From the human T2T-CHM13v2.0 reference genome, Homo sapiens, in the NCBI RefSeq assembly GCF_009914755.1, contig NC_060930.1: a stretch of DNA of 64,000 nucleotides. One strand, written 5' to 3'. Made by a program: the position numbers and the translations under genes. The notes under the pieces are model-generated. The model saw nothing but the letters and a program-made list of their open reading frames with translations, made no database searches and was not told the DNA's origin. Each line of letters opens with the position of its first letter. Position 1 is the stretch's first letter. Below, piece after piece: positions 20,801-48,900 of the stretch.

Positions 20801-21667
20801 ATTCAGGACATAGGCATGGGCAAGGACTTCATGCCTAAAACACCAAAAACAATGGCAACAAAAGCCAAAATTGACAAATGTGATCTAATTAAACTAAAGT
20901 GTTTCTACACAGCAAAAGAAACTACCATCAGAGTGAACAGGCAATCTACAAAATGGGAGAAAATTTTCACAACCTACTCATCTGACAAAGGGCTAATATC
21001 CAGAATCTACAATGAACTCCAACAAATTTACAAGAAAAAAACAAACAACCCCATCAAAAAGTGGGCAAAGGATATGAACAGACACTACTCAAAAGAAGAC
21101 ATTTATGCAGCCAAAAGACACATGAAAAAATGCTGGCCATCAGAGAAATGCAAATCAAAACCACAATGAGATACCATCTCACAACAGTTAGAATGGCGAT
21201 CATTAGAACGTCAGGAAACAGCAGGTGCTGGAGAGGATGTGGAGAAATAGGAACACTTTTACACTGTTGGTGGGACTGTAAACTAGTTCAAGCATTGTGG
21301 AAGACAGTGTGGCGATTCCTCAGGGATCTAGAAGTAGAAATACCATTTGACCCAGTCATCCCATTACTGGGTGTATATACCCAAAGGATTATAAATCATG
21401 CTGCTATAAAGACACATGCACACGTATGTTTATTGTGGCACTATTCACAACAGCAAAGACTTGGAACCAACCCAAATGTCCAGCAATGATAGACTGGATT
21501 AAGAAAATATGGTCCATATACACCATGGGATACTATGCAGCCATAAAAAATGATGAGTTCATGTCTTTGTAGGGACATGGATGAAGCTGGAAACCATTAT
21601 TCTCAGCAAACTATCGCAAAGACAAAAAACCAAACACCACATGTTCTCACTCATAGGTGGGAATTGA
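17851..21667 (+). pseudogene. L1 ORF2p (endonuclease/RT), disrupted
   Basis: MTGSNSHI start; split across several ORFs; RT motif FADD altered to FTDN. Confidence 0.95.
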
Positions 21668-22049
21668 ACAATGAAAACACATGGACACAGAAAGGGGAAC
21701 ATCACACACTGGGGCCTGTTGTGGGGTCGGGGGAGGGGGAGGGATAGCATTAGGAGATATACCTAATATTAAATGACGTGTTATTGGGTGCAGCACACCA
21801 ACATGGCACATGTATATATATGTAACAAACCTGCACATTGTGCACATGTACCCTAAAACTTAAAGTATAATTAAAAAAAAAACAAAAAACAAATTCTAGG
21901 GGTTACACACTTAAAAAAAAAAAGAAAATGTGAAGAGAGGAATTGGAGAAAAAGGAAATAGTTCCTTGGCAATAGTGGTTCTGGATATTCACTCCAATTA
22001 TAATACTTCATTCTTAGGGCCAGGTCGGTATGTCCTTTCCTGACCTTTC

Positions 22050-22315
22050 TGCATAGTGAATTCATATTCACACTTCAAACCCATGCTTACCATATCTGCA
22101 TGTGTGGATTCTTTTTGGTCTTTCAGATAGAACAAATCATTTTCTGCTTTATATGTGTTTTTAGCATAAACAGATTGTAGTACATAATTTCTTCTCCACC
22201 AGGCAGTAACTTCATGACAGCAAGTGTTGTGATTTTCTAGAATTCTCAGTGCTAAGTATAGTGTCTGCCTATCATTTAGTAATGTTCAGTTAATGTTTGT
22301 TGATCTAAACTGAAT
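22050..22315 (+). mobile_element. L2 3' end fragment
   Basis: tctcagtgctaagtatagtgtctgcc...gttcagttaatgtttgttga. Confidence 0.6.
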
Positions 22316-44190: not shown

Positions 44191-45957
44191 GTGGTTTTCA
44201 AATATACAATATCCTCACCATTTGTCTGTGTAATTTTGGAGAATCAGTTAACATTTTTGAGATGCAATTTTCTCATTTGGTAGATCTCTAGCAACTTTTC
44301 TTGCTCTAAAAAAACTAGCCTATTCCCTAAACATTGTTTATACAGGTGGCTAAAAAGTGAAATTGCAGTTTTCATCTACCTTCTTAACTATACATTTTTC
44401 AGTGTTGATGGATAACTTTGGCAAGATTACAGAAAATTTATAAGGGAATGAATACTCGTCAATCAACCATAGAGAAGAGTTTCCAAATTCTGTGAAGATA
44501 TTTTAAAGCAGAAGATTCAAAATGATATTTGAGAATAGTTAAACCACTGAATATCGTTCATATTTAGGCTACCATTATCTTTTTTAAATAACAGATTTAT
44601 TGAGATATATTTACATACTATATAATTTACCCACTTACAGTGTACAATTTAATGGTTTTTAATACATTCACAGGAGTGTGCAATCTTCCTCACAGTCAAT
44701 TTTAAAACGTTTTCATCCTCCAAAAAGAAACTCTATACCCATTAGCAGTTGTTTCTCATCACAACTATCGTCTGCCACCATTAATATACTTTCATCTCTG
44801 TAGATTTGCCTACTCTGGACTTTTCTTATAACTTGAATATTATAATAGGCACTCTTTTGTGTCTAGCTTCTTTAAGTTAGCAAGTTTTCAAGATTCACCC
44901 ATGTTGTAGTACATGTTGGTACTACATTATCTTTATTGCTGAATAATACTCCATTGCAGGATACACCACATTTTACTTGTTCATTCAACAACGGATAAAT
45001 GCATTGATGAATATGTGATTTGATTCCACTTTTTGGCTATTATGAATAATGTTGCTATGAACATTAGTATATAAGTTTTTGTGTGAACATGCATTTTCAT
45101 TTCTCCAGCATATATATTTAGGAGTGGAATTGCTGGTTCATATGGTAATTCTGTGTTTAATATTTTGAGGAACTGTCAAACTGTTTTCCAAAGCAGTTGC
45201 ACCATGTTACATTCCTCCCAGCAATGTATGAGACTCCAATTTCTGCACATCAATGCCAACTGTTTTTGTCTGTCTTTTTTATTACAGTCATCCTAGTGGA
45301 TGTGAAGTGGTATTTCCTTGCATTTCCCTAATGGCTAATAATGTTGAGCATCCTTTTATGTGCTTGTGGGCCATTTGTTATCTTCTTTGGATATATGTCT
45401 TTTGAAATCCTTTACCCATCTTCTTTTTATTTGGTTTAGTATATCTCTGTGTTTTCATTATTGATTTTTTAAAATAAATTTTGTTGTATATATTTAGGGT
45501 ATACAACATGATGTTATGGGATACACAGAGTAAAAAGGTTACTATAATGAAGGAAATTAACATATCCATTATTTCACAGAGTTATCCATTTTTTGTGTGT
45601 GTGGTGAGAGCAGGTAAAATCTATTCATTTAGCATGAATCCCATATACAGCACAATTTTATTACCTATAGTCTGCACATGATACATTAAATCTCTAGACT
45701 TATTCATCCTACATATCTTCTACTTCATATTTTCTTTCTTTTTTTTATTATTATTATCCTTTAAGTTTTAGGGTACATGTGCACAACGTGCAGGTTTGTT
45801 ATATATTTATACATGTGCTATGTTGGTGTGCTGCACCCATTAACTCATCACTTAGCATTAGGTATATCACCTAATGCTATCCCTCCCACCTCCCCCGACC
45901 CCACAACTGTCCCTGGTGTGTGATGTTCCCCTTCCTGTGTCCATGTGTTCTCACTGG

Positions 45958-48900
45958 TCAATTCCCACCTATGAGTGAGAACAGGTGGTGTTTGGTTTTT
46001 TGTCCTTGCGATAGTTTGCTGAGAATGATGGTTTCCAGCTTCATCCATGTCCCTACAAAGGACATGAACTCATCATTTTTTAAGGCTGCATAGTATTCCA
46101 TGGTGTATATGGGCCACATTTTCTTAATCCAGTCTATCATTGTTGGACATTTGGGTTGGTTCCAAGTCTTTGCTATTGTGAATAGTGCCGCAATAAACAT
46201 ACATGTGCATGTGTCTTTATAGCAGCATGATTTATAATCCTTTGGGTATATACACCCAGTAATGGGATGGCTGGGTCAAATGGTATTTCTAGTTCTAGAT
46301 CCCTGGGGAATTGCCACACCAACTTCCACAATGGTTGAACTAGTTTATAGTCCCAACAACAGTGTGAAAGTGTTCCTATTTCTCCACATCCTCTCCAGCA
46401 CCTGCTGTTTCCTGACTTTCCAATGATCGCCATTCTAACTGGTGTGAGATGGTATCTCATTGTGGTTTTGATTTGCATTTCTCTGATGGCCAGCATTTTT
46501 TCATGAGTCTTTTGGCTGCATAAATGTCTTCTTTTGAGAAGTGTCTGTTCATATCCTTCACCCACTTTTTGATGGGGTTGTTTGTTTTTTTCTTGTAAAT
46601 TTGTTGGAGTTCATTGTAGATTCTGGATATTAGCCCTTTGTCAGATAAGTAGATTGCAAAATTTTCCCCCATTCTCTATGTTGCCTGTTCACACTGATGG
46701 TAGTTTCTTTTGCTGTGCAGAAGCTCTTTAATTTAATTAGATCCCATTGCTCAATTTTGGCTTTTGTTGCCATTGCTTTTGGTGTTTTAGACATGAAGTC
46801 CTTGCCCATGCCTATGTCCTGAATGGCATTGCCTAGGTTTTCTTCTAGGGTTTTTATGGTTTTAAGTCTAACATGTAAGTCTTTAATCCATCTTGAATTA
46901 ATTTTAGTGTAAGGTGTAAGGAAGGGATGCATTTTCAGCTTTCTACATATGGCTGGACAGTTTTCCTGGCACCATTTATTAAATAGGGAATCCTTTCCCT
47001 ATTGCTTGTTTTTCTCAGGTTTGTCAAAGATCAGATAGTTGTAGATATGTGGCATTATTTCTGAGGGCTCTGTTCTGTTCCATTGGTCTATATCTCTGTT
47101 TTGGTACCAGTACCGTGCTGTTTTGGTTACTGTAGCCTTGTAGTATAGTTTGAAGTCAGGTAGTGTGATGCCTCCAGCTTTGTTCTTTTGGCTTAGGATT
47201 GACTTGGCAATGCAGGCTCTTCTTTCATTCCATATGAGCTTTAAAGTAGTTTTTTTCCAATTCTGTGAAGAAAGGCATTGGTAGCTTGATGGGGATGGCA
47301 TTGAATCTATAAATTACCTTGGGCAGTATGGCCATTTTCACGATATTGATTCTTCCTACCCATGAGCATGGAATGTTCTTCCATTTCTTTGTATCCTCTT
47401 TTATTTCATTGAGCAGTGGTTTGTAGTTCTCTTTGAAGAGGTCCTTCACATCCCTTGTAAGTTGGATTCCTAGGTATTTTATTCTCTTTGAAGCAATTGT
47501 GAATGGGAGTTCACTCATGATTCGGCTCTCTGTTTGTCTGTTGTTGGCGTATAAGAATGCTTGTGATTTTTGCACATTGATTTTGTATCCTGAGACTTTG
47601 CTGAAGTTGCTTATCAGCTTAAGGAGATTTTAGGCTGAGACAATGGGGTTTTCTAGATATACAATCATGTCATCTGCAAACAGGGACAATTTGACTTCCT
47701 ATTTTCCTAATTGAATGCCCTTTATTTCCTGCTCCTGCCTGGTTGCCCTGGCCAGAACTTCCAACACTATGTTGAATAGGAGTGGTGAGAGAGGGCATCC
47801 CTGTCTTGTGCCAGTTTTCAAAGGAAATGCTTCCAGTTTTTGCCAATTCAGTGTGATATTGGCTGTGGGTTTGTCATAGATAGCTCTTATTATTTTGAGA
47901 TACATCCCATCAATACCTAATTTATTGAGAGTTTTTAGCATGAAGTGTTGTTGAAATTTGTCAAAGGCCTTTTCTGCATCTATTGAGATAATCATGTGGT
48001 TTTTGTCTTTGGTTCTATTTATATGCTGGATTACATTTATTGATTTGTGTATATTGAACCAGCCTTGCATCCCAGGGATGAAGCGTACTTGATCATGGTG
48101 GATACGCTTTTTGATGTGTTGCTGGATTTGGTTTGCCAGTATTTTATTGAGGATTTTTGCATCAGTGTTCATCAAGGATATTGGTCTAAAATTCTCTTTT
48201 TTTGTTGCCTCTGCCAGGCTTTGGTATCAGGATGATGCTGGCCTCATAAAATGAGTTAGGGAGGATTCCCTCTTTTTCTATTGATTGGAATAGTTTCAGA
48301 AGGAATGGTACCAGTTCCTCCTTGTATCTCTGGTAGAATTTGGCGGTGAATCCGTCTGTTCCTGGACTTTTTTTGGTTGGTAAGCTATTGATTATTGCCT
48401 CAATTTCGGATCCTGTTATTGTTCTATTCAGAGATTCAACTTCTTCCTGGTTTAGTCTTGGGAGAGTGTATGTGTCGAGGAATTTATCCATTTCTTCTAG
48501 ATTTTCTAGTTTATTTGTGTAGAGGTGTTTATAGTATTCTCTGATGGTAGTTTGCATTTCTGTGGGATCGGTGGTGATATCCCCTTTGTCATTTTTCATT
48601 GCGTCTATTTGATTCTTCTACGTTTTCTTCTTTACTAGTCTTGCTAACAGTCTATCAATTTTGTCGATCTTTTCAAAAAACCAGCTCCTGGATTCATTGA
48701 TTTCTTGAAGGGTGTTCTTGTGTCTCTATTTCCTTCAGTTCTGCTCTGATCTTAGTTATTTCTTGCCTTCTAATAGCTTTTGAATGTGTTTGCTCTTGCT
48801 TCTCTCGTTCTTTTAATTGTGATGTTAGAGTGTCCATTTTAGATCTTTCCTGCTTTCTCTTGTGGGCATTTAGTGCTATAAATTTCCCTCTACACACTGC

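What the first reader, a model, noticed from the sequence alone, without database searches (positions are those of the whole stretch)
21121..46500. E1 and E3 (inverted pair, ~24 kb apart) share two ORF2-frameshifting indels and variants along their whole length
Seen: both lack catcatcact (aaaatgct^ggccatc at ~21134 and ~46491) and both have a 2-bp insertion (ctgggtgtatatacc at ~21370 and ~46252); E2 has neither. They also share gacttcaatgtccc (5'UTR), NLARKAN, ccatccagg...aaagtgcatc, CKDTH, DHTVG, aaaatggacacc, NRTIT, FLYAN, DTKKW, KLIWN, GNAIQ and GNSRCW. Established: L1 proteins act mainly in cis, so a source with frameshifted ORF2 is unlikely to have produced both. Inference: arm-to-arm conversion as in a palindrome, probably old because each copy also has many private changes.
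Basis: partly seen in the sequence, partly recalled or inferred. Interest (0 to 1): 0.7.

Follow-up and report, generated by a model that had tools for sequence, protein, structure and literature searches.

The report
Old gene conversion between two neighbouring L1s
Two separately inserted, oppositely oriented L1 retrotransposons near the chromosome 6 centromere share two reading-frame-breaking indels because the last ~2.5 kb of one was copied onto the other long ago, an ordinary kind of event but unusually well documented here.

Summary
Both indels are real. E1 and E3 each carry the 10-bp deletion and the 2-bp GT insertion; E2 carries neither.

Genome-wide, the two indels occur together in only five L1s: E1, E3 and three segmental-duplication paralogues. 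Those paralogues are an inverted pair on chr3 and one copy on chr6p.

E1 and E3 are separate insertions. They have their own target-site duplications, different tails and unrelated flanks. Their 5' 1.2 kb falls in different L1 sublineages, and an AU test rejects a common clade (p = 4e-45).

Their special kinship is confined to about E1 19163-21693 and E3 48462-45932, which holds both indels. A four-sequence test with the chr3 copies shows that the arms also exchanged after the duplication: 27 locus-type against 2 control non-CpG events.

Best reading: old non-allelic gene conversion between inverted L1s, predating a segmental duplication of at least 39 kb. "Whole length" and "palindrome" do not. 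This is a known kind of event, of modest interest.

The parts
15767..21922 (+). E1: full-length L1 with its tail (poly-A, 23 unique bases, second poly-A)
   Evidence: BLAST self-comparison. ORF2p match to PDB 8uw3, E = 1e-138. Ends read.
15755..15766 (+). E1 5' target-site duplication, AGAAAATATGAG
   Evidence: The 3' copy, AGAAAATGTGAAG, lies at 21923-21935.
21923..21935 (+). E1 3' target-site duplication
   Evidence: Identical in the chr3 and chr6p paralogues.
21129..21138 (+). E1 junction of the 10-bp deletion (ORF2 frameshift after Cys1095)
21369..21377 (+). E1 2-bp GT insertion
19163..21693 (+). E1 side of the stretch homogenised with E3 (approximate bounds)
   Evidence: Segment with the fewest fixed E1-type/E3-type differences: 7 non-CpG events in 2550 columns against 71 in 3623 outside; 0 of 200 permutations reach this. 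In the 3' tree the five paralogues form one clade, support 95/96.
45736..51865 (-). E3: full-length L1 with its tail
51866..51881 (-). E3 5' target-site duplication, AGAAAATACAGAGTAG
   Evidence: The chr3 paralogue keeps ACG here, a CpG decayed in E3.
45720..45735 (-). E3 3' target-site duplication, AGAAAATATGAAGTAG
46488..46497 (-). E3 junction of the 10-bp deletion
46249..46257 (-). E3 2-bp GT insertion
45932..48462 (-). E3 side of the homogenised stretch (approximate bounds)
31872..38450 (-). E2: a younger full-length L1 (32415-38450) plus a (TAAA)n tail and a ~490-bp 3' transduction. It lies in the spacer and is not part of the exchange.
   Evidence: Absent from the chr3 paralogue, whose empty site carries a single GTATTTCTGATGAAA. 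Lacks both indels.
14063..53530 (.). Minimum extent of the segmental-duplication unit shared with chr3:91483501-91516500. It holds E1, the spacer and E3.
   Evidence: Colinear BLAST at 94.3-95.8% identity; the alignment still runs at both ends of the DNA fetched.

Best explanation
E1 and E3 are two independent full-length L1 insertions. They landed tail to tail, about 17.8 kb apart before E2 arrived. One of them acquired the 10-bp deletion, the GT insertion and a handful of substitutions. Non-allelic (intrachromosomal) gene conversion between the inverted copies then copied roughly the last 2.5 kb of ORF2 and 3' UTR from one onto the other. The tract stopped about 200 bp short of the poly-A and left the 5' 3.4 kb largely untouched.

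The whole E1-spacer-E3 module (at least 39.5 kb) was later duplicated to the chr3 pericentromere, and the E1 side to chr6p. The arms kept exchanging short patches afterwards; this is seen mainly in the chr3 lineage. E2 then inserted into the chr6q spacer.

Shown here: the two insertions are separate; kinship is mosaic along the element; the duplication exists; the events fall in this order. Inferred: the molecular mechanism (repair of a break using the inverted copy as template) and the direction of transfer.
For: 1. Separate insertions.
- Each has its own target-site duplication and a different tail.
- 400-bp flanks are no more alike than shuffles (379 of 500 and 156 of 500 shuffles reach the score).

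2. The 5' 1.2 kb shows no special kinship.
- E1-E3 identity is 87.6%, against 91.4-92.0% for E1 to unlinked L1s and 88.3-89.6% for E3 to the same L1s.
- E3's own best unlinked hits are 91-93% identical.
- In the tree, the E1 family sits in a 100/99 clade with 4 unlinked L1s and E3 falls outside. An AU test rejects the five paralogues as one clade, p = 4e-45.

3. The 3' 2.15 kb shows kinship.
- The five paralogues form a clade (95/96) among 30 rows. Inside it they group by locus, not by type.
- Five substitutions are shared by all five paralogues, and a sixth by four of them; each is found in at most 1 of the 25 background rows (the five are also 0-2 of 23-31 rows). The two indels come on top of these.

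4. Both indels together occur only in the five paralogues.

5. Fixed E1-type/E3-type differences are rare in the tract: 7 non-CpG events in E1 19163-21693 against 71 outside (0 of 200 permutations). A Fisher test of 5' against 3' gives p about 1e-9.

6. Four-sequence test with the chr3 copies. Sites that group by locus number 38 events against 11 for the homoplasy control. Non-CpG events are 27 against 2, p = 1.6e-6. So these arms demonstrably exchange sequence.
Against: - In the 3' region an AU test does not reject grouping by paralogue type (p = 0.11 and 0.16). At tree level, exchange after the duplication is only suggestive.
- Single 'rare' alleles are not private. 20387C has 62 exact genome hits (5 paralogues plus 57 others), and 21514C has 103. 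A small unlinked sublineage carrying the substitution haplotype without the indels is not excluded.
- Background L1s were few (4-9 rows) in the 5' and middle regions. They were chosen as the best hits of E1 or E3 from 40 scored candidates out of more than 8,000.
- For the window's own pair, evidence of exchange after the duplication is thin: 5 non-CpG sites at which E1 and E3 alone share the derived state, my own reading's per-site table, not a printed count; the stricter background-based screen gives only 2, at 17344 and 17391. The control for the whole element is 2.
- Raw E1-E3 identity is not above background.
- The two target-site duplications resemble each other (both begin AGAAAATA). This is unexplained.
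Confidence: 0.72

Rival explanations
1. Chimeric origin at the RNA or cDNA stage. Both elements took their 3' ~2.5 kb from one defective L1 template, by template switching during reverse transcription or by a break in a resident L1 being repaired from an L1 cDNA. Their 5' parts came from different elements.
For: This would also give a 5'/3' mosaic with shared indels. The individual rare 3' alleles do occur in other L1s.
Against: It needs two rare events using the same defective template to land 18 kb apart. No unlinked L1 carries both indels. The same arms show exchange after the duplication, which no RNA-level event explains.
Confidence: 0.08
2. One L1 insertion was duplicated in inverted orientation at the DNA level. 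Later the 5' part, tail and ends of one copy were overwritten by other L1s or by rearrangement.
For: The two target-site duplications look alike: E1 AGAAAATATGAG/AGAAAATGTGAAG, E3 AGAAAATACGAAGTAG/AGAAAATATGAAGTAG.
Against: Flanks beyond the duplications are unrelated. The tails differ, E1 having a 23-base insert between two poly-A runs. The last ~200 bp of the L1 and the 5' 1.5 kb carry dense fixed differences. The shared AGAAAAT start is what the recalled L1 endonuclease preference for TTTT/A-type sites would produce.
Confidence: 0.07
3. Both whole elements are offspring of one ORF2-defective source L1, mobilised in trans.
For: Shared indels. Each element has its own target-site duplication and poly-A.
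Against: The 5' 1.2 kb lies in different sublineages, AU p = 4e-45. Shared rare alleles are confined to the 3' third. The only two offspring in 3.1 Gb would have had to land 18 kb apart.
Confidence: 0.03
4. The two indels arose independently in E1 and E3 at mutational hot spots.
For: The same deletion junction recurs in 4 unlinked L1s of other sublineages, and the GT insertion in 14. Both sites are short repeats.
Against: Each is rare: 4 and 14 among at least 22,123 first-look L1 3' candidates. None of the unlinked carriers has both. E1 and E3 also share rare substitutions around the indels.
Confidence: 0.01

Closest known systems
Non-allelic gene conversion between nearby copies of a transposable element, best documented for Alu and raised for L1 (PMC6598467, passages read, citing Aleshin and Zhi 2010 and Kass 1995; Burton et al. 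[quoted passage not shown]
   Same: Independent insertions. A mosaic tract of shared variants. Tree incongruence along the element. Close spacing on one chromosome.
   Different: Here the copies are 6-kb elements about 18 kb apart and inverted. The tract is about 2.5 kb and carries two frameshifts. It can be ordered relative to a later segmental duplication, which gives an internal four-sequence control.
Arm-to-arm gene conversion in large palindromes of the sex chromosomes (recalled from memory, not from a call)
   Same: Inverted repeats on one chromosome exchange sequence without crossover, so the arms evolve in concert.
   Different: Palindrome arms are duplicated genomic segments with more than 99% identity. 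Here the 'arms' are unrelated insertions, 92% identical overall and about 95% in the tract, and exchange was sporadic and partial.
Pericentromeric segmental duplication
   Same: The E1-spacer-E3 module is copied colinearly, at 94-96% identity, to the chr3 pericentromere and in part to chr6p.
   Different: This explains the five-copy distribution of the indels. It does not explain the E1-E3 sharing itself, because the flanks of E1 and E3 are unrelated.

Membership tests
Non-allelic (interlocus) gene conversion between dispersed repeats | The two copies are independent loci, with different flanks and insertion signatures | tested here: met
   Own target-site duplications and tails. Flank alignment is no better than shuffles.
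Non-allelic (interlocus) gene conversion between dispersed repeats | Kinship changes along the sequence (mosaic, tree incongruence) | tested here: met
   In the 5' part a common clade is rejected (p = 4e-45). In the 3' part a common clade is supported at 95/96. The change-point scan is reached by 0 of 200 permutations.
Non-allelic (interlocus) gene conversion between dispersed repeats | Derived variants shared by the two copies and rare elsewhere, clustered in the tract | tested here: met
   Two indels found together only in the five paralogues. Six substitutions, five shared by all five paralogues and one by four, each in at most 1 of the 25 background rows. Caveat: the single alleles recur genome-wide.
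Non-allelic (interlocus) gene conversion between dispersed repeats | Before-and-after states seen in orthologous loci of other species | not testable with these tools
   No other primate genome is held. The chr3 and chr6p paralogues served as partial stand-ins.
Classical palindrome with arm-to-arm conversion | The arms are one duplicated genomic segment with near-identical sequence | tested here: not met
   The arms are separate L1 insertions. Identity is 92.1% overall, and the flanks are unrelated.
Offspring of one L1 source element | Shared diagnostic variants along the full length, with the copies sister to each other in every region | tested here: not met
Segmental duplication (for E1 against E3) | Homology continues into the flanking unique DNA | tested here: not met
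   It is met for window against chr3 and window against chr6p.
Full-length primate L1 (LINE-1) | About 6 kb, ORF2 with a match to human ORF2p, poly-A tail, target-site duplication | tested here: met
In the 3' tree E1 and E3 branch deeper than E2's group.

The most novel reading that the evidence does not exclude
Two unrelated full-length L1 insertions became a self-made, long-lived pair evolving in concert. Exchange recurred in at least three epochs: before the duplication, in the chr3/chr6p stem, and on chr3 alone. It was always confined to the same 3' ~2.5 kb, and it spread inactivating frameshifts from one element to its neighbour. If this is general, local conversion would be a route by which defects spread between clustered L1s, and inverted L1 pairs would act as seeds of palindrome-like behaviour in pericentromeric DNA.
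Probability: 0.25. Interest if true: 0.45.

Novelty: new member of a known kind. Interest (0 to 1): 0.3.

Why it matters
- It is a clean, datable example of gene conversion between two full-length L1s. The later segmental duplication supplies an internal control that is rarely available.
- It shows that shared 'diagnostic' indels or substitutions in neighbouring L1s need not mean a common source element. That matters for subfamily calling and for source-offspring inference.
- It shows that raw pairwise identity is a poor test for conversion in old repeats.
- It does not change what is known about L1 biology.

Tried and rejected
- Flank homology between E1 and E3 (Smith-Waterman against 500 shuffles): none found, so a DNA duplication of L1 plus flanks was dropped.
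- Raw identity against genome-wide best hits: E1-E3 is not above background in any third of the element. This was judged uninformative on its own.
- Single-allele genome counts for two 'private' substitutions: both recur in dozens of L1s. Only the combination is informative.
- AU tests for grouping by type in the 3' region did not reject it.
The chr6p copy was read for 9 kb only. A search with E3's 3' flank found no chr6p partner, but only 40 of 14,546 candidates were scored.
- A literature phrase search for L1-L1 gene conversion returned 1 paper, and that only through its reference list.
- The source of E2 was sought through its transduced DNA. One other copy lies on chr10 at 96% identity, with no L1 directly upstream of it.
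Full report
**What is there.** The window holds three full-length L1s.
- E1 lies at about 15767-21922 on the + strand.
- E2 has its L1 body at 32415-38450 on the - strand.
- E3 lies at about 45736-51865 on the - strand.

E1 and E3 face each other tail to tail. Both carry the 10-bp deletion (junctions 21129-21138 and 46488-46497) and the GT insertion (21369-21377 and 46249-46257). E2 carries neither. The deletion lies just after ORF2p Cys1095 (PDB 8uw3 numbering, E = 1e-138) and gives a stop 11 codons on.

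**How rare the indels are.**
- The deletion junction (28-mer, up to 3 mismatches) gave 18 matches. With at most 1 mismatch there are 9: E1, E3, chr6:57.54 Mb, two on chr3 (91.490 and 91.509 Mb), and four unlinked (chr6:87.14, chr7:124.33, chr2:48.76 and chrX:75.07 Mb).
- The four unlinked copies lack the GT insertion and sit in other parts of the L1 tree. The deletion is therefore a recurrent event at a short repeat.
- The GT-insertion 28-mer (up to 2 mismatches) gave 87 matches. Most are a TA variant. By my reading of that table, 14 unlinked L1s have the GT form.
- Both indels together occur only in five copies: E1, E3, chr6p, and the chr3 pair.

**The five copies are paralogues by segmental duplication.**
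- chr3:91483501-91516500 is colinear with window 53530-14063 at 94.3-95.8% identity, in inverted orientation. The alignment still runs at both ends of what I fetched.
- chr3 lacks only window 31874-38450, which is E2. E2 therefore inserted after the duplication.
- chr6p:57537501-57546500 is colinear with window 13987-22994 at 94.9%.
- The 3' flanks confirm which copy matches which.
- E1's 3' flank has exactly 3 copies in the genome (3 of 3 candidates scored).
- E3's 3' flank was found only in the window and on chr3, among 40 of 14,546 candidates scored.
- So E1 and E3 already shared both indels before this duplication.

**E1 and E3 are separate insertions.**
- E1 has target-site duplications AGAAAATATGAG / AGAAAATGTGAAG. 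Its tail has 23 unique bases between two poly-A runs.
- E3 has AGAAAATAC(G/A)A..TAG / AGAAAATATGAAGTAG and a plain tail.
- Four hundred bases of flank on either side align no better than shuffles: 379 of 500 and 156 of 500 shuffles reach the observed score.

**Kinship is mosaic along the element.** Overall identity does not set E1 and E3 apart: E1-E3 92.1%, E1-E2 91.8%, E3-E2 91.9%.

| Region | E1-E3 identity | E1 to unlinked L1s | E3 to the same L1s | Tree result |
|---|---|---|---|---|
| 5' 1.2 kb | 87.6% | 91.4-92.0% | 88.3-89.6% | E1 family in a 100/99 clade with four unlinked L1s; AU test rejects the five as one clade, p = 4e-45 |
| Middle 2 kb | 92.6% | 93.7-94.1% | 93.2-94.3% | Copies group by type; whether the five form one clade is unresolved, 65/84 |
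| 3' 2.15 kb | 94.6% | 94.6-94.9% | 94.2-94.8% | The five form a clade at 95/96 among 30 rows; inside it they group by locus: E1 with E3 (81/71), and the chr3 pair with chr6p (92/99) |

- In the 5' region, E3's own best unlinked hits are 91-93% identical.
- For the 3' tree, 7 rows below 88% identity were left out.
- Alleles exclusive to E1+E3, against E2 and four unlinked L1s, number 2, 6 and 27 columns in the three regions.
- Against 25 background rows, five substitutions are shared by all five paralogues (20194A, 20387C, 20719T, 21206G, 21514C) and 20979T by four; each is carried by at most 1 of the 25 rows, and the first five by 0-2 of 23-31 rows.

**Four-sequence test.** This uses E1, E3 and their chr3 counterparts.
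- Sites grouping by type number 109 events, by locus 38, and the crossed control 11.
- Non-CpG events number 78, 27 and 2.
- Locus against control gives p = 1.4e-4 for all events and 1.6e-6 for non-CpG events.
- Locus-type sites concentrate at E1 19213-21692. Fisher tests of 5' against 3' give p = 9e-10 and 4e-10.
- Fixed type differences are rarest in E1 19163-21693 (E3 48462-45932): 7 non-CpG events in 2550 columns against 71 in 3623. None of 200 permutations reaches this.
- The last ~200 bp before the poly-A again carry 7-8 fixed differences.
- Most locus-type sites are derived states shared by both chr3 arms, and often by chr6p as well.
- For the window's own pair, by my reading's per-site table (no call prints this count), only 5 non-CpG sites have the derived state in E1 and E3 alone. 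The stricter background-based screen finds 2, at 17344 and 17391.

**Results against this reading.**
- AU tests on the 3' alignment do not reject grouping by type (p = 0.11 and 0.16).
- The single rare alleles recur elsewhere: 20387C at 62 places and 21514C at 103.
A small unlinked sublineage with the substitution haplotype is therefore not excluded.
- Background rows for the 5' and middle regions were few and were picked as best hits.

**Mechanism and order of events (inference).**
1. Two L1s inserted independently.
2. One accumulated the two indels and several substitutions.
3. A break in one L1 was repaired from the inverted neighbour. This copied about 2.5 kb, with both ends of the tract inside the L1.
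4. The module was duplicated to chr3 and chr6p. The spacer differs by 4.2% between chr6q and chr3. With a recalled rate near 1e-9 per site per year, this is of the order of 20 million years.
5. Patchy exchange continued, seen mainly in the chr3 lineage.
6. E2 inserted into the chr6q spacer.

Within the tract, only 11 fixed differences separate the two types. Homogenisation therefore happened not long before the duplication.

**Comparison with what is known.** Non-allelic conversion among transposable elements is established for Alu and is more frequent between close copies (PMC6598467, passages read). It has been discussed for L1 since 1991 (title seen in the reference list of PMC5640379). My three literature searches found no description of this locus, but they cover open-access text only. 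This is a new, well-controlled instance of a known process. It is not a palindrome and not a source-offspring pair.

Noticed in passing
window 31872-38450; chr10:52564141-52564631 of the same genome: E2 is a full-length L1 with a 15-17 bp target-site duplication (GTATTTCTGATGAAA), a (TAAA)n tail and a ~490-bp 3' transduction that ends in its own poly-A. The transduced DNA has one other copy in the genome, on chr10 at 96% identity, and no L1 lies directly upstream of it there.
   Followed up: partly
window 14063-53530; L053, L056, L057, L054 (chr3:91.48-91.52 Mb); L055 (chr6p:57.54 Mb): A segmental duplication of at least 39.5 kb links the chr6q and chr3 pericentromeres, and a copy of at least 9 kb lies on chr6p across the centromere. 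In E1 and its 5' flank the chr6p and chr3 copies are closer to each other than either is to chr6q. In the 3' flank all three distances are about 2.5%.
   Followed up: partly
window 21890-21922: E1's tail reads poly-A, 23 unique bases (CAAATTCTAGGGGTTACACACTT), then a second poly-A. It is conserved in the chr3 and chr6p copies and may be a very short 3' transduction.
   Followed up: no
window 15755-15766, 21923-21935, 45720-45735, 51866-51881: The target-site duplications of E1 and E3 resemble each other: both start AGAAAATA and continue with .GA(A)G. The flanks beyond them are unrelated. This may reflect the endonuclease's site preference plus chance.
   Followed up: partly
window 21129-21138 and 21369-21377; loci L008-L052: Both indel sites are mutational hot spots in L1. 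The same 10-bp deletion recurs in 4 unlinked L1s. A different deletion (...GCTCATCATCAG...) occurs in several others. A TA insertion at the GGGTATATACCC site occurs in dozens of copies.
   Followed up: partly
L054 / L012 (chr3), homologous to window ~22050-22095: The chr3 copy carries extra tandem copies of a ~41-43 bp unit (82 extra bases) that is single in chr6q and chr6p.
   Followed up: no
window 15766-21889 against flanks 13987-15765 and 21950-22994: The L1 body of E1 differs from its chr6p and chr3 paralogues by 5.1-6.4% in its three main segments, but the flanks by only 2.5-4.0%. The excess may come from CpG decay, from imported variants, or from both.
   Followed up: no
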